Source: Cetorhinus maximus | Taxonomy: Eukaryota | Direction: 5' to 3' | NCBI RefSeq assembly: GCF_964194155.1 | Contig: NC_135896.1 | Location: forward strand, 25,110,001 to 25,174,000 | DNA: 64,000 nt | In this document: piece after piece, positions 5,250 to 56,990 of the stretch | Layout of the letters: each line of letters starts with the position of its first letter | Position numbering within the stretch: position 1 is the stretch's first letter | Position numbers and translations under genes: made by a program | Notes under the pieces: model-generated | Told to the model about the DNA's origin: nothing | The model's input: the letters and a program-made list of their open reading frames with translations, nothing else | Database searches by the model: none

Positions 5250-6485
5250 ATGTGGTAGCAATAGGGAACAATACAGTCAGGCAGATTGAAACTATTCTCT
5301 GCGGTCACAAAGATTGCGTTGTCTGCCTGGTGCCAAGTTAAAAGACATCTCCTCAAGGCTGGAGACAAACTTGGAATGGGAGGCAGAGGGTCCAGTTGTC
5401 TTGGTCCATCTAGGAACCAACAACATAGGTAGAACTGGCAATGATATTCTGCTGAGAGTGCTTGTGTAGTTAGGGTCCAAATTAAAATATAGAACCTCAA
5501 AAGGTAATAATCACAGGATGGTGGCCTGACCCACTTGCCAATTGGCATAGGGTTATTGTGTGGGAAGAAGGGGTTTCAATTCATGGGGCACTGTCACCAG
5601 TACTGGGGAGGGAGCTGTTCTGTTGAGATAGACTCCATTTCAATCGGGCTGGGATCAGGCTTTATACGAAAAGGGGGGTGGGGTGGAGATGAGGGTAAAA
5701 AAGCTCAGGTGAAAGGAGATTTACAATCTAAAGAGAAAAGACAAGACAATAAAGCATTGTAGCAATTTGGGTAAAGACAAGCAGAGTGAGACAGGAAGGG
5801 TCAGAGAGTTTAACGATAATAGAGCATCAACGAATAAAGTGCATGCAAAGAATAGTGGTAAATATAATTAAAGACGCTTTATTGAATGCGCGAGGCATTC
5901 AAGATAGACAAATTAGTGGTGCAAATAAAGATACATGGGTTTGATCTAATTGCCATTACAGAGTCACAGTTAGAAGGTGACCAAATTTGGAAAATAAATA
6001 TTCCCGTGTACACATTTCAAAAAGACAGAATGGAAAAGGAGGCATAGCCCTGATAATAAAGGATAATATAAGAGCAGTAGCAAGAAAGGATATTGGCTCA
6101 GAAGATCAAGAAGTAGAATTAGTATTTGTGGAAATTAAGAATAACCAAGGTCAGAAATGCTGGTGGGAGTAGTTTATAGGCCCCCTACCAGTAGTTATGC
6201 ATTTGGACTAAACATTAAGCAAGAAATAACTGGAGCTTGTAACAAGGCAATGTAATAATTGTGGGGGACTTTAATCTTCATATAGACTGAACCAATCAAA
6301 TTTATAAAGGTGATTTGATAATGAGTTTGACAATACTTTGACAATTTTCTAGAACAATGTATTGTGGAACCAGCTGTAGCCAAAGCCATTTAAGATCTAG
6401 TATTATGCAAGAAGGCAGGATTAATTAGCAAAATCATAGTAAAAGATCCTCTGGGAAAAAAATTATCATAGTACAATTGAATTTC
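5250..6485 (+). mobile_element. Decayed CR1 LINE: ORF1 SGNH-esterase-like part and start of the ORF2 endonuclease
   Basis: Remnant motifs VCLPGA-like, VLVHLGTNNIG, DLIAITES, GVVYRPP, IIVGDFN with stops and frameshifts. Confidence 0.7.
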
Positions 6486-16520: not shown

Positions 16521-18739
16521 AAAATAGTCTTAATAGTGCTTAAATAAACCCTTTACCAGGGAAAGCCATGACCAGTAAACTTAAGAATAGCTAGCTTGAA
16601 AATGATTTTTCACCTAGAACAACCGTAGAGCTACACTTTTCTTATTTGATGGTAGGAGCACCAACAGGAAAAAGACAATTCTCCCTGCAAAAACTGTATT
16701 AGGTCCATTCATGTATTTTATGGAGAAAAAATCAGTTTGTTGATTTACAATTGCATCTTGGCTCATTGGAGTGCTTTTCAGTCCACCTTTCGTGAAGATA
16801 GGAGAATGCTCATGGCTACAACTGCAAGATGACAGTAACCAGTCACACAACAATGGTTCTCACAGTCCAAAATCAAACTATCAGACAGTAAAGGTGCACA
16901 TGGGATCATACAGAACATAAGGTCCTTTTACATGAGCGAACACTGACCGGACAGAATACCTAATAAAAACCATACATTTTGCAACATCCCTACAGTAATT
17001 TTTCCTATTTTAAGTATGAATGATTACAACTCCATTAGCTCCAGCAATGTTATTAGTCCTGATGGCAAGGCCAGCAGTTATTTATAACACCAATTTATTT
17101 TTCTTAAAATAATCATCCTTATACCTACTACTAACCAGCTTTTAACATTTACAATTAAAAATGATAAAGAAATTTAGAATTTATTCTTTGCTTTCCAGTG
17201 AATATAAAAAGAAAACGCTGAAATCAACAATTTGGAAACAATGTATGTTTCACAACAATGGTTGGAACCAAATCCAAACCACTTTCATAGAATCAGTACT
17301 TAATATTTATTGACTCTAAGCAAGGAATATATTACTCTTTTGAGTGGATCATACTTAGATGCATTCCTCATTATTAAAATGATTTATTCTGCACACTAAT
17401 TAAGAAGTTTGCTGGCATTTTACAGTTAAAGATTAAATTTGCACCATAATAAGTACTTACTTGAAACACAAATTAAATACAAACAATGAATAATTGCTGT
17501 AGATATGGTTTTAAAAAATGGATAATGAAAAGAAAACTAATACATTGGTTTCGTCAACTTTTTTATTCCCCCCAGAAAAGAACCGAATATTAATTTAAAA
17601 AGTTATGGTTTCTGGCAAAGGCTGAATATTAATTAGATATGTAAATTTTAATTAAATTTAGGTTTCGGTCACATTATCAACTATCAAATTTCACTGACGC
17701 TGCTTATAAACTTTAATCTATTGTTCCCACTCCCTCAAATCAATTACATACTGGAGGAGAAAAAACATAGATAAGCCATTAAGAAGATGCTCTCAACATC
17801 AAAGTCTTTCCAAAAGTAACATGTCTTGACACTTAATTTAAACTAATACAAGTCACTCTTTCAAGTGAGGCAACTGAAGTGCGCTTCCAAATCGATTTTT
17901 TCCACCATATGTGGGAATCAAATAAAGCCCATTTATTTCAATTCAGAGCTTATTAGTGCCAATTACTGACTTGTAACTGTCAAGTGTGAAAAACCTAAAT
18001 TTGGTCTATGATGAAATCTGAGAATTCCAAAGTTTAATGATCTATAGATGTGTATGCTGAAAAGATAAATCTGATTTAATTTAGAAGTTATACTTCTTTA
18101 GCCCCATTATTATGTAATTTATCTGTTCGCAGAAAATCTATTGACTGATAGATACTTTTACATGGTCTGTGCAAGAGGAAGCTACAGCATATCTTGTAAT
18201 CCAGAACAACATTGTAAAATTATCTTAAAACAGAAGTTGGATGATTAATAGAACAACTACATTTCTTAAATGTGAATATACATTGCTCATAAAAAATTTT
18301 GTTTTTAAACATTAAGACTCAATTACGTTATAGGACTTCAATAAATCCCAGTGCTTGTAATGCCAAATCAACATTGGCTATGATCTGATCCGCAGGGAAA
18401 TGAATATTTGTGATCTATTAATGCACCTTCCAAACCTGCAATCTCTCGAAGGTCAGGGGCAGCAAATGCATTGAAGCATCACTCTTTGCAAATTCCCCTC
18501 CAAGTCACATTGAAACCTGACTTGGAAAGATAGTACACTGTTCCTTCATTGCAGCCGGGTCAAATACTGGAACTTCCTCCCTTACAGCACTGTGGCACCT
18601 TCACCACACAGCTACAGGCAGCTCATCACCACCGTCTCAACGGCAATTAGGGATGAGCAATAAATGCTCGCCTTGCCAGTGATGCCCACATTCAATAAAC
18701 AAATGAAAACAAATATCTTTCTCAATTTTATTTTCGTAC

Positions 18740-19048
18740 CTCATTTGGTGACAATGGTTCCAGAGTGGGAATTACATCAAGGTCTTCATTGGTTTCTTTC
18801 TCATCATCATCGAAGAGGCTCTTCATCGCTTTTTGCTGAGCTGCAACTTGGTCAGAGCTGTGTGTGGATGAGGGAGCATCAACCTGCATTTCCCCATCTT
18901 CATCCTCTCTTAACTCCCCCTCTTCCAGAACGACCCCAGTATCTACCTTTGACACCCTCATGTCCAAGACACCATCTATCCAGGCTAACTCTGCATCCTT
19001 TGCTTTACAGAACTGCAGAGAACTGACTAAAGAATCCTTTAGTCTAAC
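18740..19048 (-). CDS. CPSF2: CPSF2 coding exon 12 ([26 protein letters not shown]...[11 protein letters not shown])
   Basis: 309 nt, CAG acceptor, GTACG donor. Confidence 0.96.
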
Positions 19049-19929
19049 CTGTGAAAATGAAATATCCAAATATTAGGAAATCATAGAATGAGACAGCACA
19101 GAAGGCCATTCAGCTCACCATGTCTATGCTGGTTATGCAAAGATAAAGACAGTAGTTTTACTAAGCATGTGTAGGAAACTATAATATTCTGACACACAAT
19201 ACAAAATCTTCAAACTAAATATAAATTAAATCTTCTTTGAAAGATGACATTTATTTTCATAAATATTTTCAAAATTTTTTAGTTCTTTCAGAGTTTATTT
19301 CTGACTTATTTTTGATTGTTTTTCTCATTGTTAATTTAAAACAAATGTTATAACATATCAAGGTATTGAGCAATAATTCAATGGCTTCAGTGGTTACTTT
19401 ATACTTTCATCTATAGTTTGTGTGTCCTTCACTTTAACACAATTCTAATCTCTGAATAAATCTAAGTTCCATGCTAACAACCCTAAGGATTTAATTTTCT
19501 CAAATGCTAAGCAGCTTATTATTTGTGTTGCTGTAATTTGCTTTGGAAAATATCAAATCTTGGCGTCACATAAAATTAATTTGCAGAAATATGTAGGGCT
19601 TCCGGCAGAATTCCAATGAATTGAGGCTACTGCAATAACAGGACATTAAATTTGTCATTTCTGTTCATTCAGAGCGTATGTATTACCATTTGAAAGTGCA
19701 AATTGGTAGTAATTCCCATCTCATTAGAGAAACTTATATATAAGCTATCTTTCCAAAAGTATGAAGATACAATCAACCACTCAGGATTAGATACTTTTGA
19801 TCAAATGTTTAAAGCAGCAGCATGTTGAAGAAGTTGTAAAGTTGTGGTGCATTATAGTTCTGGACTCTGCTGAACTCAAAAAATTGTATTGTTACTTCCA
19901 ATTTAAAAATATATATTGTAGAGAAAGAA

Positions 19930-34736: not shown

Positions 34737-35150
34737 CAGGTATCAGCTATAGCTGTTGTAGTATTCTTGCCTCTGCGTCAGAGGTCATGGGTTCAAGCCC
34801 CACTCCAGAAACTGGAGCACAAAATCTAGGCTGTCACTTCATGCAGTATTAGTGTTGCAAAAATGGAGGTGCTATCTTTCACATACTACTTTAAAACTTG
34901 GCATGGTCTGTCCTCTCAGGTGGATGCAAAAGATCCCCTGGCACTATTCGAAGAGTTTTCCCTGGAGTCCTGGTCAATATCTCTCAAAAAAAAAAATTAT
35001 CTGGTCATTATCTCATTGCTGTTTATGGGACCTTGCTGTGTGCAATTTGGATTGCTTATCCTACATTACAACAGTGACGATGTTTCAAAAGTACTTAATA
35101 GGATGTAGTGTTTTGGGGCATCTTGAGGTCATGAAAAACACTATATAAAT
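34737..35150 (+). mobile_element. Near full-length Deu-domain tRNA SINE (SacSINE1/AmnSINE-like)
   Basis: tRNA head (B box GGTTCAAGCCC), central CAGGTGGATGCAAAAGATCCC...TTGCTGTTTATGGGACCTTGCTGTG, tail ACTATATAAAT; partial copies at 43190-43360, 44330-44490, 55450-55730. Confidence 0.7.
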
Positions 35151-39806: not shown

Positions 39807-40502
39807 CGTTATGACCACAGCAGATGTTAATTGCTGAGCAAACCAAATCCCAGAGGGAAACTTGGCTTACAGGCCATATCCTTTTTCTTTATATTCTTAA
39901 AATGAGAAGAGAACATACTGATCTCAGCAGCAAGAAGTCCTGTAACACTTTTGTGATTTTAAAATTTAAAAATAAAAGCTTTATTAACAAGAAGAAAACT
40001 TAAGCACACAAGATTACACTTACATAGTTAAAATTAAATTTTACAAAACATTCCCTCAAAAGACTCCCTACTTGGTCAGACCCACAAGTAAACACCTTCC
40101 AGGCAATACTCCCTCATAGAAGTTAACTATAAAACCTTTCATGTTTTTATTTTGTCTCTGCTTTCAGGTCAATAAAATGTAACATACCCTCTTTTGTTTA
40201 CCCATGGAATTGCTGTAAGATGCAAAAATATTTTTTATCACCTGACTTCCCTTTGATATTCAAACAAACTCAACTTTTCTAAAAATGCAAACGCTAGATC
40301 CAACCTATTTACTTGTACTTCAAGCCACCATAATATTTCATTACAAATGCACAACCTAACGCCTCTATCGTTTCATGTCTTGAACCTCCCAGACAATCTG
40401 TCTCTAGTAGCCTTTCCCCAGCTTAGTTAAAATATTTACAAATACAGAGCCTTCTTCACAGAATAACACCATATTCTCCAACAAATATTTTTAAAAATAA
40501 CA
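39807..40502. mobile_element. Possible solo LTR interrupting a CR1 tail
   Basis: CGTTAT...ATAACA termini (TGTTAT...ATAACA with one change); CR1-like sequence on both sides; no clean TSD. Confidence 0.35.
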
Positions 40503-40688
40503 TCCACTCTCACATAATCTATATTCCCTCCTTATGGATCACCCAATCACTGGAGATAGTCTGTTCCTAACCCTCACAGAATAACACCATATTCTCCAAA
40601 AATATTTTTTAAAATAACATCCATTCTCACATAATCTATATCCCCTCCTTATGAATCACCCAATCACTGGAAATAGTCTGTTCCTAAC
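40456..40688. repeat. Tandem duplication, period 118 bp, two copies
   Basis: TCACAGAATAACACCATATTCTCCAA...ATAGTCTGTTCCTAAC at 40456 and 40574. Confidence 0.9.
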
Positions 40689-42157
40689 TATTGTGAACTA
40701 TCCCTTCATTATTTTAAACCTTTGTATCGAATTACTCTAATTTCATCTGTTCTAATTAATCAGTCTCAAATATAATGTTTTTCTTTGCATTTCTACTTCT
40801 TCATACAGAGCAGCTTTCAAGTGATTCTGCACACACTCTTTCCACACTGAAGCACACAATACTCCAATTTTAACTTTCATAATCTACATCATTTGCCACA
40901 AAACCAAGTATTGTTAGATTCTTACAGTCTTATCCATTAGAGATGCTGCTTTTAACCAAAACCCACACAAATCTTTCTAATCTTCCACATCTCAATCTTC
41001 ACCCAAAGTAAATGTACCACCTGCACCTGCATCAAATTCCATTTGCCATTTTTTTGCAGCTCTGCCATCTTATCAATTTCCCCTTGCAGCTTTCTTTGGT
41101 CCTCAGATTTACTATGCCTTCTATTTTTGTAGTTTGCTAACCTGGACTCTATTCTCTTCAAAGTATCCTGTGTGGCCCTTGTCCTTTCACATCACATCCA
41201 TTGCCTGTCCCCATTCACACTGTCACCTCCTCAAAGGACTGTTTCCCAAGCACAATCTTTCTTTCTGAAATCCATACTGGGTCCTTCTAATTATTTTTTC
41301 TCCATATATAATTCAGAAAAATGGCACACTTCTGCTGTTTTTTTGTCTTTTTCCCTGTTGCCTTCCCTTTCATATTTGTCACAATCCTTCCAGACCCTCT
41401 TGATCTCAGTTTCATAAACAAGACTCATAAACAAGTAACCAAGACTCAAAACCCTCATCCCAATCTGACCACTAAATATGTGCATAATGCTCTTTTTCCA
41501 GAAAAAATAAGTAGGTTTTTTTATACTATATCCTTTTTTACAGCAGAGGCTAAGAATGAGACTTCGTACTTGACAGAAAATGCAACTTTGGCTTTAAGGG
41601 TACAAGTTTTAAATCAGTCTGTGTACGAAGTCCCATTGTGTAACATGCATCAATTTGAGGGGGAAATTAGAATTCTATCGTGAACAACTCATGTGTTGTG
41701 AGTTGTGAATTCTGTATCATGTGCATAATACTGGTTGCGTTTTCCAAGAATATCGTACAAATTTGGTCTGGGTGCTCCTGCATGCTGCTGAAAATGTTCT
41801 CATCTTAACCATGGTAAAGGAATAACAAACTATTGTACTTTCATGTTGATGACTCTAATAAACTAGAAGCAAATCGCATGTCAACTGTGGACTGGAAGAT
41901 TTACTGTGTAAGACTAAAAGAGGAGAACGAGCGGAGTTTTGTTGTCTCCATGTCTATGAATTTGAAAGTTTTTGGAAGGGGATTATCAATGAACAAAAGG
42001 AATGAAACAGGTTAGATCAGGGGGTGGGGGTCTCTATAATCCCAACCCCCCACCACCACCCATTTCTGATGTTTCTCAGTATTTAATCTTTAAATCCACC
42101 CCATAAACACAAACCATTTCAATTAAGAGAAAGTTGACTGCTCTCTATAAAACATAC

Positions 42158-42300
42158 CGAGTTAAAATTAAGTACCGAGGCAACTGCCCGGCAGCCGGCC
42201 GGGTTTCTCCCGCCCTCTCTCTTTTCACACCACCAGCCCCGCACCGGCTCTCGCTTCCCCAACCGCCATCTTTCCCCCCTGCGTCACCGGGTCAGAGGTT
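42158..42300 (-). other. CPSF2: Probable non-coding first exon of CPSF2 (5' boundary unknown)
   Basis: CG|GTATGT donor on the minus strand at 42157 at the edge of the CpG-rich island; the coding exon has an acceptor upstream of its ATG. Confidence 0.55.
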
Positions 42301-42369
42301 AACGGGCTCCACCATCGCTCGCACTCCCCCCCCGCCTCCTGGGTGTGAATGGATCAGCCGGTTGCCCTT

Positions 42370-42433
42370 CGCTTCCTCCAGTTACTGAGGGGCTGGGGGA
42401 AAGACGGCCTCAGTCACAGGTCGCTAAAGGCAG
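42370..42433 (+). other. NDUFB1: Probable non-coding first exon of NDUFB1 (5' boundary unknown)
   Basis: Consensus donor CAG|GTGAGT at 42433/42434. Confidence 0.7.
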
Positions 42434-43366
42434 GTGAGTAACTGTGTCTGGAAGGCGGTCTCCGGCTCAGCGCGTTGAGTGAGCCAGCAGCAAATTGAGC
42501 TCAACTCAGGTTGGCACTGTCCTCCCGGGTTTAGCCGTGATCCCATGTCCTTGTTATACTTTCTCCTCCCCTCTCCGGCCTAACCAGACTCGGTAAAGGT
42601 CAGTTTGGAGCCACAGCTTCCAATACACACCAGGGCCACCTGGATAGGGGTAACGGCGAAGTGCTGAACAGAGAATTTAAAATGTGCAGACAACACAAAA
42701 TTAAAGAGCATATGGGGAGGAATGTAAGTGACTTCTGGATGGCACGCATTAGGCAGATCAATATTGGATGAAATGAGAACAGGCACATTTTGGGAGGAAC
42801 AATAGAGGAAATGCACAACAAATCATTCATGTTTGAACGTAGAAGACCAAAAAAGAGATGGGGAGGGGAGTCACTAACATCAGTCTTTAAAAATTATTGG
42901 ACAAAATTGATACTGCTGTTTCTTAGAGAAAAAATATATGGAATCCTATGATACACTCAACTGTTTACATCCCTTCAGTGTGAAAAATATCCATGAGCTA
43001 TTGATTTCTATGTAAAGGCAGAACTAGTTAGGAATGAAATTTTTGTCCCTCTATGCAAACTCATTATCCTTGAGTCTTATGTCCCTTTTCTTTGGTTGTT
43101 GAATTTTGAATGTTGGCATAGTTTCTGCCTCAACTACTAACCTCAAAAATAAATTCCTCAGCTTTGTAATTCTTTGTAAAGAAGTTTCCCTTGCTGCCTT
43201 ATTGTCTGGTCAATATTTATTCCTCACCCAACATCAGTAAAAATAAGATTATCTGGCCATTGTCTCATTGCTATTTCTGGACCCTTGCTGTATGCAGCTT
43301 GGTTGCTGTAACTATACTTCAGGACTTCATTGGCTGTAAAATGTTTTGTGGCATCCTGTGATTCAG

Positions 43367-43552
43367 ATTGCCATTCTAGTTCAGTCATTTTCCACATTAA
43401 TTGTGAATGAATACCACCTTCATGCAAGTTCTTATAACTTACAAACCTGTGCACAGCTTTTGGCACCTGTTTACTTGGAGTAAAAATCATTGGTATAATA
43501 TTTAGACCAAATTATCAGAACCTCCATATGACCATAGCAAGTGGGTAACTAT
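43367..43552 (+). repeat. Local duplication; paralog at 44573-45069 carries the tandem SINE insertion
   Basis: Long shared blocks such as AAAAATCATTGGTATAATATTTAGACCAAATTATCAGAACCTCCATATGACCATAGCAA. Confidence 0.9.
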
Positions 43553-44633
43553 ATCTGTTCTAGATCCCTCAAAGCTGTTGAAATAGCCTCTGTTTATCAT
43601 CTTCTAAAAAGACCTGATCTGATGGACCATGTAGGCCTTTTTTCTGCCCATATTTATGAGACCTGGAGGCTCACGGCTCCCTACCCTAGAAAATAGTGCA
43701 GAATGAAGAGAAACAAATATTTCAATGGGAGTATCGTGACATTATCTGAAAAACTTCTCTCATTTTGGATTCTTTGGTTACCTCATCATATGGATGATCA
43801 TATGGATTCTGTATTCCAGTTTTTCCTATTGTGTCCCTCGTAGTGAATTTGAGCTATGATAGATTGAATGGCCTTTTAGCTTTGACTTCTTTGCAAGAGT
43901 TTTACTTTGTATGTGGTGGTTTTTATTTCCTGTTTCAGTTTTGAAAGTCAACTTTTGTATTAGGACACATTTATTGGAACTAGCCAAATATTTAATGCTT
44001 TGGCTAAGCTATCATGATGCTAATATTTTACTGTTGAAGATATTATCATAGCAGAAAATGAACTATGAGTTATTTTGCATTGTATTAGCCATCCAATGTG
44101 TGCCTGGTTGCACAGATAATACAAATATAAACTAATATACTATAATAATGTAATTGTAATATTGCCAGCAGTATCAGTCTACCCAGTTGAAATACATTTA
44201 GCTGCCAAATCACACCAAATAGCCAAAGTTCCTAAAGATTGATGTTTGAGTTCAGTGTAAAAATCTTCTTCAAATGAGAAGACCAAGGAGTTCTTCCAAA
44301 ATTCCTTTTGTAACTAGTCCCCATAAAAATATAGATTAACTGGTCATTCATCTAACTGGTGGATGTGGATTCTTTCTAAACAGGAAATGACTTCCACGGT
44401 TACTCATATTAAGTCACTGCCCTTCAAGGTCATTAATTTGTGTTTGTTGCATTTGAGATATTTTGGATAGAAATGATACTTGTGGAAATGTAATTTTTTT
44501 TGATTTGGTAATGAATTACAAACCACAAAGCAGTAAAGAAAAAAATTCCAATTCTAATGATGTAATTTACTCATTGCCATTCTAATTCAGTCATTTTCCA
44601 CATTAATTGTGAATGAAGTGAATGAGTACCACC

Positions 44634-44961
44634 TTCATATAGGTTCTAGAGGTGTCAGCTGTGGCTCAGTTCATAGCACCCTCGCCTTTGAATAAGAGGG
44701 TTGTGGGTTCATGTCCCACTCCCGGAAACCGAGAACTGCGATTGTACTCGAAAGAGTTGCAATCTGTGACTGTTGATAACTCGAAAGAGTTTCATATAGG
44801 TTCTAGAGATGTCAGCTGTGGCTCAGTTCATAGCACCCTTGCCTTTGAATCAGAGGGTTGTGGGTTCATGTCCCACTCCCGGAAACCAAGAACTGTGATT
44901 GTACTCGAAAGAGTTGCAATCTGTGACTGTTGATAACTCGAAAGAGTTTCATATAGGTTCT
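44634..44961 (+). mobile_element. Two 143-bp tRNA-headed SINEs in tandem with a 14-bp target sequence present three times
   Basis: TTCATATAGGTTCT at 44634, 44791 and 44948; units 44648-44790 and 44805-44947. Confidence 0.9.
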
Positions 44962-45157
44962 TATAACTAACGAACCTGTGCACCTGTTTACTTGAAGTAA
45001 AAATCATTGGTATAATATTTAGACCAAATTATCAGAACCTCCATATGACCATAGCAAATGGGTAGCTATGCCCATGTAAGTAGGAACACAGCACCTTTTC
45101 ATCAGGAATTTCTGTATTAAACAGTTGTTTTTGTTTTTCTTTCCTCTCCTCAGCATA

Positions 45158-45294
45158 ATGAGTCTGGTTGGCATCATACGTGAGCATTGGGCCAATATCC
45201 TTGTCCCTCTAGGTTTTGTATTGGGATGTTATCTTGATAGAAGAAACGATAGCAAACTAACTGCATTCAGAAACAAAAGTTTATTGTATAAACG
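45158..45294 (+). CDS. NDUFB1: NDUFB1 coding exon 1 ([45 protein letters not shown]), complex I subunit B1
   Basis: Polypyrimidine tract + CAG at 45151-45153, ATG 45158, CG|GTGAGT donor; motifs HW..LVP.GF..GCYLDR and LTAFRNKS match NDUFB1. Confidence 0.95.
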
Positions 45295-45559
45295 GTGAGT
45301 ATGAAATTTACAGCTTGATTCCATGTTGCCTTATTTACAGATTAGTTTGTGTGGCTGCAAAACCCTTATTGATAATTGATTATTTTAATGCAAAACTGCA
45401 CCAATCTTGATGAGTATCATTCATTGAGTGAGTAAACAGTTTGACAAAATAAATAAAGTACATTTCCAACCATAGAAAATTTTTCAGTGTCATATGATTT
45501 GCCTACAATCTCAATGTTTATGGTTGGCTTATAACATCTTGCTAAATGTCTCAAGATAA

Positions 45560-47160: not shown

Positions 47161-47225
47161 ACCCCACTCCTCCTCTCCCCCTCCCCCCCCCCCCCCCCCC
47201 CCCCCCCACCTCCCCCCTCCCTCCT
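47161..47225. repeat. Poly-C/pyrimidine tract
   Basis: Run of about 25 C flanked by CCT words. Confidence 0.9.
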
Positions 47226-48953
47226 GGTTTAAGTAATTTTACCACCAGGGAGGAGATTTGTCACAACTAATTTTAACAATTCACTATGGTAACTTGGACC
47301 ACATGGCCTTGCACACAAGCAGTGGCAAATTATAAATTGCAATGGGTACAAACTCAAGAGGATCTTGATTTGCTCAATCATTGGCACTGTGGCAGATGCA
47401 ATTTAATACAGAGAAATGTAAGGTTCTGTGATTTGATAGAGTTAGTATGGATTATATATTAAATTGGAATGTACTTGAGGCCTTGGAACAGGAGAGAGAT
47501 CTTGGGGTTTTAATGAGAAGGTCAATAAAACCATCAGCACAATGTTCCCAGGTTACTTAAAAAAAGAAAATAAACCATTGGATGCAAAGAAAGGGTTGTG
47601 ACATATAAATCCAGAGAAGCTATTTGCAAACTGTATTTGGCCCTGTCAACATTACTGCCGCCTTCTGGCTCAATCATTTCAGGTTTTTCATTTTGTGCAT
47701 ATACTTTAATATGCTTCTTGCATCTTTTTCTTATCTAATCAGGGTTTGCTAATAAAACACCTTCTTTACTGTCTATTGCTGTTGTTTTCAGTTCTTTATG
47801 CTGAATGCCACTAATCTCCTTTGCTTTTGCAAACATAAGGTCTACCTTTCCTAGTTGATCCAATCTTTCGAGTACATCTCACTGCTCTTCTAACCACTGT
47901 TCTTGTGTTTTTTCTGTTTCTCGTCTTAGCTCATTGTTGAAGTATCTGTATTTCAGCTCGCCTTTGTCAGTATTGATATTCTTCCATTTTCTCCGTTCTT
48001 CCATCTTTCCATCTTCCATCACTGCAGCCGCAACCCATGGTTTCTTGATCCTTTTTCTTCTTAAAATGGGTCTGCTGTTTGCGCCTCCATCCTTGACAGA
48101 TTCTTTAATCTGTTTATATTGCTCATTCATGCTGGTGGTATCCTTATTGTTTCTAGCTAGTACTTTGTTTATTTCATTTACAAATTCTTCTTTTAATTAT
48201 TTCAGCTTCTCCAGATTCCAGTGTTTTCTGCATATTCCACCTTGGATCTTCTTCAGTCAGACTGTTTCCATTTTTTCAGGATTATGATCAGATTTTGTGT
48301 TGGTTCCCAGCTGAGCTTTCTAGTTCTTGACACTATTCCTGTATCATTGTCTCATCATTATGTAGTCTAGTTGAAATCTTCCTGTATCGCCAAACATTTT
48401 CAATGTGTATCAACCATGTATTTGTTATCATAAGTCTTGTTCTTCTACAAAAATCTACCAGAATTTGACGTTGCTCATTTCTTTCTCTAGTCCATATGGT
48501 CCTACTTCTTTGTCATCTCTTTCTTCTCCAACAACACTGTCCCAATCTCCCATTAACAATTACATACCTCTTTCCACTCCTGTTCAATTAGTTTTTCAAT
48601 TCTATCATGTCCTGATGAAATAAGAAAAAGGTGGAAGAAGGATATTGAAGAACTGTATGGGGGGGGGAAAAAAGAAAAACTCAAAGATTGAACTAGAAGA
48701 AGAGAGAAATGTTGACACTGATTTCATTGGACCAGAAATACTAGAGAGTGAGATAAGAGCAACAATAAATGAGATAAAAACTGGAAAAGCGGCTGGAACA
48801 GATGAAATACCTGCAACGCCAATTAAAAACATGGGAAACAATGTAAAATCAGTGGTTACTAAGCTTTGCAAAGATACAAATTTACTTATTAAGAGAATGG
48901 CTGGAGTACTTCATGCAGACAATAATGATCACCTTTAGAAAGAAGCCAGAGGC

Positions 48954-51690
48954 TGGACCAGCAGTATGCTATTGCACCTACCCCAGTATTATACAAACAG
49001 CATCTGGCTCTACAGACTGAATTTGACCTTCTTTCCACTAAACAAACAGAAAAGTTTATACTTGAATCATGTGGTACATTTTCTGAGCATGGTGAAAGAT
49101 CCGGTAGGCTCCTGGCTCACCAACTTCGCCAGTCTGCTTCCTCTCAACTTCTTACTGAAATCACCACTCCAACAAGGTCAACCACCACCGATCATCAGGC
49201 GATCAATGATCAATTCAAACTTTTTTATTCCACTCTTTATACCTCAGACTCCTATTCAGATCCTGGTTTATTTCACAATTTTATTGATAATATGGACATC
49301 CCATCTCAAACATCTGACTCTGTGAATGCGTTAGAAGTATCCTTTTCCCAAGATGAAACACTAAAGGCAATTAAATCCATGCAAAGTAATAAGGCACCAG
49401 GGCCTGATGGATTTCCAATATAATTTTATTTTAAAAAAACTATCACAACTTTCTCCATTATAATTGTCACTGTTTTTGGAATGCTTTCTCTCTGAAATGC
49501 TCCGTCCTATGCTGCATGAGGCATCTTTGTCTATTCTTTTAACAAGGGATAGGGATCCTCTGCATTGCAGTTCATACCAGTCTATTTCCCTTCTAAATGT
49601 GGATGTTAAGGTACTAGCTAAAGCCTTAGCCCACTGTCTTGAACCTGTCCTTCCATCTATTATATCTCCTGACCAGACAGGTTTCACACAGGACAGGCAA
49701 TCCTTCTCTAATTTAAGGCGTCTTTTCAATATTATTTATACACATTCAACTACTCCTCTCCCTGAGATTCTTATAATTATGGATGCAGAAAAGGCTTTTG
49801 ATAGAGTGGAATCGGACTACCTTTTCTTCACTCTTTGAAAATTTGGATTTGGACCCATTTTTATAAAATGGATAAAACTATTGTATTCCTCACCAGTTAC
49901 TTCAGTACGTACAAATAATATCCACTCTAAACTCTTTGACTTCCACCAAGGTACTAGAGAGGGCTGTCCCCTTTCTTCCCCCGCTACCTTTCACTATTGC
50001 TATTGAGCCCCTGACAATTTCACTGCAGACCTGTGGAGATTTACAGGGTGTTATACGGATTGGAGTCAAGCAGACACTCTCTCTTTATGCTGAAGACCTT
50101 CTTTACATCATGATCTGGCCTAATCTCGCCCATATATTTTCTCTAATCTTGAGTGATTTGGTCATATTTCAGGTTTTAAAATTAATTTGCAAAAGAGTGA
50201 AATTTTTCCTATTAAATTCTATTGCAAAGAGTTACCTTCTTCCCTCCCCTTCAAGGCCTCAGTAAACAGTTTTAAATATTTAGGAATTTTAGTTACTCGA
50301 TCCCTTGGAGACTATTTTAAGCTCAACTTTGACCCTTTATTGGAACATATGAAGCAGGATTTAGGACATTGGTCTAGCTTACCCCTTTCTTTAGTTGGTT
50401 GTATAAATTCTGTAAAGGTGAATATTTTGCCAAAATTTCTATACTTATTTCAGTGCATCCCATTGTTTATTCACAAGCGTTTTTTTGTTGCAATAGACCA
50501 ATTAATTTCTTCCTTTATTTGGAACAAGAAAACACCCAGAATTCATAAAGTTTTTCTACAAAATCCCAAGCATTTAGGTGGTTTGGCACTACCAAATTTT
50601 CAGTTTTATTATTGGTCTGCTAATATCCATAATTCTTTTTGCCTTCATTTTTGACCCTCTCTCTCAGAAATATGATCTGCCGTGCACACACTTCTTTCGC
50701 TATTTACAAATCAGTGATTTTGTGCACAAAAAAATCACCCAGTTTCCTTTATTGCCCCCCCAAATCACCAATAGATATTATGTTAAAATTAAATCCTTTT
50801 GTTAAGGGGTTCATTTCCAAATTGTATTCTCTAATGTTTTCACTACACTACCCTTTGTTTTCTACCATAAAAACTCTTTGGGAGCAAGATTTTTACTCAG
50901 ACTTATCAGAAGATAACTGGAAGTCTATTCTCCCATTTGTACATCCCTCATCCGTATGTGCAAGGCATGAGTTGCTACAATTTAAAATCTTATGTCACAC
51001 CCCTCTATCCAAAGTGAAATTATCTAAGATTTATCCAAATTTTGATCCAACCTGTGATAAATGTCATACTGCCCCAGCTTCTCTAATTCATATGTACTGG
51101 TCATGTCCTAAATTGGCTTTGGTTTGGACAAAAACTTTTACACCACTCTCACATATTTTTAGTGGCAACATTGAACCTCCTCCATTACAGCACACTTTGG
51201 AGTGGAACCAAATGGCATCCCTCTTACAAAAATGCACTCGCCTTTTCAACATTATTGGCTAGACATATTATTCTATTAAATTGGAAACAGACTGCCCCAC
51301 CTTCTTTTACTAATTGGCTACGTGATCTTATTCAGAATCTTGAAAATAAAATACACTATAAGGGGTTCCACTGATGGATTTAATATAGCTTGTCAACCTT
51401 TCTTAGATTACTTTGAGGAGCTACAGCTCTCTACTTTCATATAACTGAGCCTAATTAGGTTGTATGTATTATATTAGGTGAAACTATATCTGACCTGTGA
51501 TTGTTGTTGACTTTCTTATTATCTAATTTTTGGGGTTTAGGAGGTTTTTTTTTCCTTTTCTTCCTCTGACTTTTCCTTTCTTTCTCTTCCAAATGTAAGT
51601 GTATTGAATTATTGTGGTGCTGTAAGCTTCTTTTGTACATTTATTCATTATGACTATTGTTAAATTTTTTTTAAAATAAAGAATTAACAA
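48954..51690 (+). mobile_element. 5'-truncated L1-clade LINE (ORF2 RT and C-terminal Cys domain, frameshifted) with TSD
   Basis: YQSISLLNVDVKVLAKALA, PDQTGF, DAEKAFDRVE, FKYLGI, CDKC...HMYWSC; AATAAA near 51675; TSD AGA(A/G)AGAAGCCAGAGGC at 48937-48953 and 51691-51707. Confidence 0.9.
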
Positions 51691-54345: not shown

Positions 54346-54382
54346 GGAATTGAAACCAGGTGAAGAAACTACATGGAAGTGA
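54346..54382 (+). CDS. NDUFB1: NDUFB1 last coding exon (R/ELKPGEETTWK*)
   Basis: ttttAG acceptor, phase completes the CG+G Arg codon; the C-terminus REL.P.EE.TWK matches NDUFB1; total 57 aa. Confidence 0.95.
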
Positions 54383-54513
54383 TGAGCTAAAAACCATGCT
54401 GAGAAAACAAGGAACTGTTTTGCATAAAAACAAGCCCAATGTCAATTCTAGTCTTGATGAGTCTTCAATCAGGGATCCTGTGAAAGTTTATTTGAATAAT
54501 GCTGTTTTGTCCT

Positions 54514-56651: not shown

Positions 56652-56990
56652 TTGGTGGTAGAGATTGAGGTGTCAGCTGTGGCTCAGTTCATAGCACCCT
56701 CGCCTTTGAATCAGAGGGTTGTGGGTTCATGTCCCACTCCCGGAAACCAAGAACTGTGATTGTACTCAAAAGAGTTGCAATCTGTAACTGTTGATAACTC
56801 GAAAGAATTTTTTTTTTTGGTGATAGAGATTGAGGTGTCAGCTGTGGCTCAGTTCATAGCACCCTTGCCTTTGAATCAGAGGGTTGTGGGTTCATGTCCC
56901 ACTCCCGGAAAACCAAGAACTGTGATTGTACTCGAAAGAGTTGCAATCTGTGACTGTGGATAACTCGAAAGAGTTTGGTGGTAGAGATTG
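56652..56990 (+). mobile_element. Second tandem pair of the 143-bp SINE with a different 16-bp target sequence present three times
   Basis: TTGGTG(G/A)TAGAGATTG at 56652, 56817 and 56975; lies within an old LINE tail (56400-57050). Confidence 0.9.

What the first reader, a model, noticed from the sequence alone, without database searches (positions are those of the whole stretch)
44634..44961. SINE inserted as TSD-SINE-TSD-SINE-TSD (target site triplicated), locus 1
Seen: the 14-mer TTCATATAGGTTCT occurs at 44634, 44791 and 44948, separating two nearly identical 143-bp units (period 157). Established: ordinary target-primed reverse transcription gives one element between two target copies, and a dimeric master would carry a fixed spacer. 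Here the spacer is the local target itself, and the same design recurs with another target at 56652. Inference: the family has a built-in doubling mechanism, such as re-cleavage of the regenerated site, template jumping through the target overhang, or systematic TSD-mediated unequal recombination.
Basis: partly seen in the sequence, partly recalled or inferred. Interest (0 to 1): 0.78.

Follow-up and report, generated by a model that had tools for sequence, protein, structure and literature searches.

The report
SINE family that often lands twice
A young, very abundant short retroelement in what is likely a shark or ray genome sits here as two copies separated by a third copy of its own landing site, an estimated one copy in four to one in ten genome-wide has such a head-to-tail neighbour, and the likely cause is that the copying enzyme starts a second round at the same cut before the site is sealed.

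Summary
Both window loci (44634-44961, 56652-56989) are target-unit-target-unit-target, built from a 142-nt tRNA-headed SINE with a twin-hairpin tail. The 14-mer is host DNA: site 1 is empty in two related species and in an in-window paralog. Raw reads from another individual show the family is abundant, absent from both relatives, and often head-to-tail: 377+118 junction reads, an estimated 10-28% of units, with different spacers of about 13-15 nt. So most copies are monomers, but doubling is far above chance re-insertion (at most 0.3%). Paired units share 0 of 11 derived changes, and the two units of locus 2 have different 3' ends and different family variants, which points to two RNA templates. 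Best reading (0.5): serial target-primed reverse transcription at one cut. Rivals: later insertion guided to existing copies; DNA-level duplication through the target repeat. The architecture is known (Alu, blood-clam SINEs, snoRNA retrocopies, R1, Drosophila dimers); its frequency in a family without a fixed target is the new part. Spacer = local target is shown for 2 of 2 loci only; the partner LINE is unidentified.

The parts
44634..44647 (+). target copy 1 of locus 1 (14 nt)
44648..44790 (+). SINE unit 1A (extra A at 44648, then 142 nt); three private changes against the read majority
44791..44804 (+). target copy 2 (spacer), identical to copies 1 and 3
44805..44947 (+). SINE unit 1B (extra A at 44805, then 142 nt); two changes against the read majority
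44948..44961 (+). target copy 3; contigs of two related species begin to match exactly here (empty site)
   Evidence: table 8 records 14 and 23
44812..44884 (+). tRNA-like head of unit 1B with A box (44819-44827) and B box (44863-44873); same in all four units
   Evidence: RF00005, 15 bits, E 2.8, below the gathering score of 29; box patterns (recalled consensus) matched
44897..44921 (+). tail hairpin 1 (GAAA loop, one bulged U); about 33 nt around it is also a several-hundred-fold repeat in both related species, candidate partner-LINE end
   Evidence: fold; tables 2 and 3
44935..44948 (+). tail hairpin 2 (same GAAA-loop core) at the very 3' end; its last T overlaps the first T of the target
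56652..56666 (+). target copy 1 of locus 2 (15 nt; 16 with the ambiguous G)
56667..56816 (+). SINE unit 2A with variant 3' end and T run
56817..56831 (+). target copy 2 of locus 2 (one G>A)
56832..56974 (+). SINE unit 2B, carries the +A variant seen in 608 of 6143 reads
56975..56989 (+). target copy 3 of locus 2
43367..43552 (+). older local paralog of site 1, empty, with one copy of the target at 43419-43432 (11 of 14 identical)

Best explanation
This is a young tRNA-derived SINE whose copies often stand as head-to-tail pairs separated by a third copy of the insertion target, likely because the partner reverse transcriptase runs two rounds of target-primed reverse transcription with two RNA molecules at one staggered cut. 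Proposed order: the bottom strand is nicked and primes copying of RNA 1 (the downstream unit B); the top strand is cut 14-15 nt away; the enzyme jumps from the 5' end of RNA 1 onto the top-strand overhang and copies the target; this recreates the same 3'-OH end, letter for letter, that primed round one; in roughly one event in five a second RNA is engaged there before ligation and becomes the upstream unit A, followed by one more copy of the overhang. Immediate re-nicking of the upstream target copy by a complex that stays bound gives the same product and is counted under this reading. Shown: triplication, empty sites, family-wide junctions with varied spacers, unlike units. Inferred: the enzyme, the order, the coupling in time.
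For: Empty site with a single target copy in two related species and an in-window paralog. 377 reads in 11 joint rows go from the 3' end back to the 5' start, plus about 118 reads aligned through the spacer with mixed letters: 10-24% of units by the 3' side, 18-28% by the 5' side, against at most 0.3% for chance re-insertion even if only 1% of the genome is usable. The four shown full-unit spacers span 13, 14, 15 and 15 nt, like the window's targets. Units of a pair share 0 of 11 derived changes; the closest pair of the four is 1B-2B (3 differences), across loci. At locus 2 unit A has the G>A near the end (699 of 3313 reads) plus 8 extra T, unit B has the +A variant (608 of 6143 reads): two different family variants, as expected for two RNAs. 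Template jumping between RNAs and onto the nicked top strand is reported or modelled for L1 ORF2p (PMC7617806, passages); a machine that stays in place and takes a second RNA was proposed for rare snoRNA/SINE triplications (PMC1687206, passages).
Against: Only 2 loci have flanks, so spacer = local target is untested for the other junctions. The shared extra A at both 5' junctions of locus 1 (only 54 of 377 joint reads end on an A there) is what a DNA-level duplication would also give; the model needs that A to sit on the top-strand overhang. The divergence test is inconclusive: 11 differences in two pairs exceed expectation at 1.5% species divergence (P 0.005) but not at the 4.3% implied by shared words (P 0.67). 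All four units lack the four common variants (19-27% of reads) so they could be one subfamily. The partner element was not found. The reads come from a capture library that may favour pairs, and hidden table rows were filled by assumption.
Confidence: 0.5

Rival explanations
1. Later, separate insertions are guided to existing copies: the partner enzyme is tethered at the SINE's RNA polymerase III start site (as recalled for Dictyostelium TRE5 and yeast Ty3) or prefers the old target, and cuts again just upstream of the resident unit.
For: Explains two different templates and the shared A (a 15-nt second cut that takes it along). R1 tandems are explained by insertion into the TSD at the 5' end of a resident copy (PMC2718515, passages); Drosophila dimers by double insertion (10.1101/158386, passages).
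Against: The targets of the two loci and the 12 shown spacers share no sequence, so there is no R1-like fixed site. The second duplication has the same left boundary as the first at both loci (within the T overlap) although target lengths differ (14 and 15). The two older SINE copies with a related head (34738, 55725) have no unit in front, a sample of two.
Confidence: 0.22
2. A single insertion was later doubled at the DNA level, by unequal exchange, slippage or repair using the two 14-15 nt target copies as homology.
For: Gives exactly target+unit repeats, including the shared extra A at locus 1. It is the explanation offered for blood-clam TSD-(SINE-TSD)n arrays, citing the Alu triplication paper (PMC11481361, passages and section 15). 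A plain 117-bp tandem duplication lies in the window (40456-40688).
Against: No shared derived change in either pair (0 of 11); locus 2 would need an independent G>A plus 8 T in one unit and an independent +A in the other, both matching family variants. 10-28% in a family younger than the species split compares with about 3% of all tandem-like SINEs in blood clam and 2% in potato. No other repeat in the window is doubled this way. That 14 nt is too short for efficient homologous exchange is general knowledge, not tested here.
Confidence: 0.2
3. Many junctions in the reads are copies of dimeric source loci transcribed as one RNA, or two RNAs joined by template jumping with unrelated filler, and the two window loci are a minority class.
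For: Some junction contigs are 3 to 9 times deeper than single-copy DNA (254-696 against 73.6), as expected for amplified dimers or longer arrays; spacers outside the window are not tied to their flanks.
Against: Cannot give spacer = flanking target, seen at 2 of 2 loci. Seven of the 11 shown go-back junction contigs are near single-copy depth (85-112) and all differ.
Confidence: 0.06
4. The doubled loci are assembly artefacts.
For: No read or contig spanning locus 1 was seen.
Against: Units differ at 5 and 6 positions, two loci show it, and hundreds of raw reads of another individual hold such junctions.
Confidence: 0.02

Closest known systems
Target site triplication of Alu (Lee et al. 2015, Gene 561:283; title seen only in reference lists; paper not held) and of snoRNA retrocopies with Alu/B2/ID (Weber 2006, PMC1687206, passages)
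   Same: Two retroposed units between three copies of one target; Weber already raised a machine that cuts the same site twice and recruits a second RNA.
   Different: Weber's cases are a few loci of unlike elements with A-rich tails and L1 sites; here it is an estimated 10-28% of one family with no poly(A) tail. The Alu rate could not be read.
TSD1-(SINE-TSD1)n arrays of blood-clam (Scapharca broughtonii) SINEs (Martelossi et al. 2024, PMC11481361, passages and section 15)
   Same: Identical architecture in tRNA-derived SINEs.
   Different: All tandem-like forms together are about 3% of copies, units are highly similar and equally truncated, and the authors suggest unequal recombination; here the rate is several times higher and paired units differ.
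R1 tandem arrays in 28S rDNA (Stage and Eickbush 2009, PMC2718515, passages) and Drosophila double insertions (McGurk and Barbash, 10.1101/158386, passages)
   Same: Units separated by a 14-bp target copy; new units added at the 5' side; tandems can be as common as singles for R1.
   Different: R1 has one fixed target, which explains its repeat hits; this family lands in unrelated sequences. Drosophila dimers of non-specific elements were found as scattered strain-level events.
Rodent and bat SINE multimers: B2 40%, Dip 49%, Ves 11.5% (Vassetzky et al. 2021, PMC8466645, passages)
   Same: High multimer rates in SINE families; shows that a high rate alone is not unique.
   Different: Spacers were not analysed there and insertion into the A-rich tail of the neighbour was one suggested route; this family has no A tail and its spacer is the local target at both testable loci.
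SacSINE1 / HE1-type old SINEs of cartilaginous fishes (Luchetti et al. 2017, PMC5499810, passages; the naming of the window's old copies is recalled, not tested)
   Same: The 75-nt head aligns with two older SINE copies in the window and with abundant copies in the related species.
   Different: After the head the sequence is unrelated: no body domain, a 65-nt twin-hairpin tail; a tail-swap origin is inferred.

Membership tests
tRNA-derived SINE | tRNA-related head with A and B boxes | tested here: met
   Boxes present in 4 of 4 units; whole tRNA model aligns but weakly, 15 bits, E 2.8; ARAGORN and Rfam gathering threshold give nothing
tRNA-derived SINE | Short, non-coding, dispersed in many copies | tested here: met
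   142 nt; 8687 of 12.18 million reads, depth about 5500-6000 against 0 on the single-copy flank; contig depth ratio about 58,000 (rough, the tool warns it is no copy number)
tRNA-derived SINE | Target site duplication against an empty site | tested here: met
tRNA-derived SINE | Tail shared with a partner LINE | tested here: inconclusive
   About 33 nt of the tail is a high-depth repeat in both relatives but its carrier was not identified
tRNA-derived SINE | Transcribed by RNA polymerase III | not testable with these tools
   No RNA run laid
Target-site triplication, TSD-(SINE-TSD)n | Same-orientation units between three copies of a pre-existing single target | tested here: met
   2 of 2 window loci; pre-existing single copy shown for locus 1
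Target-site triplication, TSD-(SINE-TSD)n | Spacer equals flanking target across the family | not testable with these tools
   No genome held; reads give spacers without their flanks
True dimeric SINE (Alu-like) | Fixed linker between units in all copies | tested here: not met
   12 of 12 shown between-joint sequences differ; most units have no neighbour
Site-specific tandems (R1-like) | One conserved target sequence | tested here: not met
   Targets of the two loci and shown spacers are unrelated
Retrozyme / Penelope-type repeats | Self-cleaving ribozyme in the unit | tested here: not met
   No ribozyme family at E up to 10 in 44600-45000; an undescribed ribozyme is not excluded
SINE-derived satellites (sSat) | Arrays of partial SINE units | tested here: not met
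   Units here are full length and target-spaced; PMC10702118 passages describe repeats of SINE portions and never mention TSDs
SacSINE1 / Deu-SINE | Conserved body domain and L2-type tail after the head | tested here: not met
   Similarity to the window's old copies stops after the head; no published consensus was available for direct comparison

The most novel reading that the evidence does not exclude
The unidentified partner retrotransposon re-primes at its own regenerated nick in about one insertion in five, with no sequence-specific target. Thousands of target-spaced pairs in this genome would then be a natural record of the least understood step of target-primed reverse transcription, the joining of the 5' end: they would show that the reverse transcriptase itself copies the top-strand overhang and can take a second RNA, and would point to an enzyme that writes RNAs in series into one cut.
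Probability: 0.4. Interest if true: 0.78.

Novelty: new variant of a known kind. Interest (0 to 1): 0.56.

Why it matters
How non-LTR retroelements finish the 5' junction is still argued from test-tube work (PMC7617806, PMC2718515, passages). A young family with tens of thousands of copies, of which an estimated 10-28% carry a target-spaced neighbour, makes this testable from genomes alone: order of units, subfamily pairing, shared junction bases and the dimer:trimer ratio each separate serial priming from later re-insertion and from recombination. It is also a ready source of seeds for satellite arrays. If recombination explains it, it is a higher-rate case of something already described.

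Tried and rejected
Pattern scans for the tail found nothing in viral contigs or metagenome contigs. Three near-matches to the hairpin core elsewhere in the window (17334, 17855, 47862) are not family members; 47862 lies in the reading frame of a decayed LINE-like stretch. The L1/Tx1-like fragment at 48.9-51.3 kb (RT hit) does not carry the tail. Other local direct repeats (9843/10277, 25624/26177, 40456/40573) are not target-spaced pairs. No RNA holder listed. The age test on unit divergence was inconclusive. Joints with a 5'-shortened downstream unit (44948 to 44837, 44877, 44883) or a 3'-shortened upstream unit (44915 to 44806, 30 reads) were first taken as proof of separate templates and then dropped, because short reads do not show whether the partner unit is shortened alike. 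The T at 44840 shared by both B units (7.7% of reads) was considered as a sign of a dimeric master and set aside as a CpG change seen after the fact. Hammerhead/retrozyme and Helitron readings were rejected (no ribozyme match; Helitrons make no target duplication, recalled). A literature search on the 12-nt hairpin core gave only unrelated listings. Four look-ups in earlier findings gave nothing on this family.

Full report
Observation. The 14-mer at 44634, 44791 and 44948 is exact and occurs nowhere else in the window. The two units differ at 5 of 143 positions. A second locus has a different 15-mer at 56652, 56817 (one G>A) and 56975. BLAST of the unit against the window finds these four full copies and only two weaker head-only matches, at 34738 and 55725. 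So 2 of 2 loci of this family in the window are doubled.

Setting. Locus 1 lies about 190 nt upstream of an exon that encodes the complex I MNLL subunit (PF08040, E 7e-25), in what is likely intron 1 of NDUFB1; a fitting last exon starts at 54346 and locus 2 lies about 2.3 kb behind it. A CPSF100 C-terminal exon is at 18.7-19.1 kb on the minus strand. The host is a vertebrate; that it is a shark or ray is my inference from recalled likeness of the old repeats and was not tested.

The unit. A 75-nt head with A and B boxes (box patterns recalled) aligns weakly to the tRNA model (15 bits, E 2.8; nothing at the gathering threshold or in ARAGORN) and to two older SINE copies in the window, with similarity ending after the head. 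The 65-nt tail folds into two hairpins with the same GAAA-loop core, the second ending at the last base of the element. There is no poly(A) tail.

The spacer is target DNA. An older paralog of site 1 at 43367-43552 runs through the site with one copy of the target, 11 of 14 letters alike. In one search I laid four runs on 44771-45540 (20 nt of unit A, the spacer, unit B and the right flank). A contig of organism B (X5, record 23) starts to match exactly at 44948 with 1019 other letters in front; a contig of organism C (X12, record 14) runs from the paralog through 1064 letters to 44948, where the window has about 1080 letters before the first target copy. Both are empty sites. In both relatives depth over the last 26 nt of the unit is at single-copy level or below, and head matches continue after 44879 into the old SINE's sequence, so the family is absent there. 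About 33 nt around hairpin 1 is matched in both by 4-5 short contigs at 260-470 times single-copy depth: a repeat shared by all three species and the best lead to the partner LINE.

The family. In raw Illumina reads of another individual of the same species label (X21, capture library, 12.18 million reads read) 8687 reads lie on the unit, depth about 5500-6000, with none on the single-copy flank. Contig depth in X1 is about 4.3 million against 73.6, a rough ratio of 58,000 (the tool warns that this is no copy number). Of 54 joint rows 15 were shown; 11 of these lead from the 3' end (44947-44952) back to the 5' start (44805-44810) and sum to 377 reads. About 118 more reads align through the spacer with mixed letters and 1-4 nt gaps. 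Shown loose ends number 2786 behind the 3' end and 1803 before the 5' start (371 rows hidden over all runs). Raw shares are 0.10-0.22; with a simple read-geometry model and assumed values for hidden rows, 10-24% of units have a unit behind and 18-28% a unit in front. Capture may favour pairs; partner-LINE ends may dilute the 3' figure. Chance re-insertion into an existing target is 2e-6 to 3e-3 over the ranges tried. Of 150 rows of letters between joints 12 were shown, all from X1, all different; the four full-unit cases span 13, 14, 15 and 15 nt. These spacers cannot be tied to their flanks.

One template or two. Against the read majority, units 1A, 1B, 2A and 2B carry 3, 2, 3 and 3 changes; none is shared within a locus, one (a CpG change, 7.7% of reads) is shared by both B units, and the closest pair is 1B-2B. 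Unit 2A ends with a G>A seen in 699 of 3313 reads followed by 11 T, unit 2B ends normally with 3 T and carries a +A seen in 608 of 6143 reads. That is simplest if two RNAs were copied. Against this, both units of locus 1 begin with the same extra A, which only 54 of 377 joint reads show; a DNA duplication gives this for free, while the serial model needs the A on the top-strand overhang or inside a 15-nt second cut. The test of unit divergence against species divergence depends on which estimate is used (P 0.005 at 1.5%, P 0.67 at 4.3%) and decides nothing.

Mechanism. I favour (0.5) two rounds of target-primed reverse transcription at one staggered cut: after copying RNA 1 the enzyme copies the top-strand overhang, which rebuilds the original primer end, and sometimes takes a second RNA there. 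The geometry is inference from the standard model; jumping between RNAs and onto the nicked top strand is reported or modelled for L1 ORF2p (PMC7617806, passages). Rivals are later insertion guided to resident copies (0.22), DNA-level duplication through the target repeat (0.2), amplified dimers (0.06) and artefact (0.02).

What is known. The architecture is in print: target site triplication for snoRNA retrocopies next to SINEs, with the idea of a machine that stays and takes a second RNA (PMC1687206, passages); for Alu (title only, in reference lists; not held); TSD-(SINE-TSD)n in blood clam with about 3% tandem-like copies (PMC11481361, passages and section 15); R1 arrays spaced by the 14-bp target (PMC2718515, passages); Drosophila double insertions (10.1101/158386, passages). 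Multimer rates of 11.5-49% are reported for mammalian SINEs without spacer analysis (PMC8466645, passages). PMC10702118, PMC5499810, PMC3747384 and PMC8501958 were read as passages and do not describe this family. Ten searches found no report of this SINE or of a target-spaced rate this high in a family without a fixed target; Repbase and Dfam could not be searched, subscription papers are missing and no supplements were read, so the family may already be catalogued.

Verdict. Real, family-wide and far above chance, but a minority state and a known architecture. New variant of a known kind; interest 0.56, rising to about 0.78 if serial priming is shown.

Noticed in passing
window 45154-45297, 54346-54385, CpG-rich 42001-42500: Likely NDUFB1 gene (MNLL subunit): coding exon just downstream of locus 1, last exon at 54346, possible promoter at 42 kb; CPSF2 exon at 18728-19072 on the other strand; second CpG island at 59-60 kb.
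   Followed up: partly
window 44888-44920 (runs X5 and X12): About 33 nt of the SINE tail, with G>A at 44916 that perfects the hairpin, is a several-hundred-fold repeat in two related species that lack the SINE; candidate end of the partner LINE.
   Followed up: partly
window 44912-44919 (joints): Some units end after the first hairpin and are then followed by a spacer and a new unit (30 reads at 44915): a shorter subfamily or priming at the inner hairpin.
   Followed up: no
table 5c: Four shown junction contigs are 3-9 times single-copy depth: longer arrays or amplified dimers may exist.
   Followed up: no
window 43367-43552 and 44573-45069: Older local duplication about 1.2 kb apart (83-85% alike), also present in organism C.
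   Followed up: partly
window 40456-40688: Plain 117-bp tandem duplication, 94% alike, no third boundary copy.
   Followed up: yes
window 47500-48940 and 48929-51262: Decayed LINE-like stretch interrupted or adjoined by an L1/Tx1-like fragment with a reverse transcriptase match (PF00078).
   Followed up: partly
window 47162-47225: C-rich run of about 45-60 nt.
   Followed up: no
window 44855, 44880, 44899, 44916: Four common variants (19-27% of reads) suggest at least one more subfamily; none of the four window units carries them.
   Followed up: no
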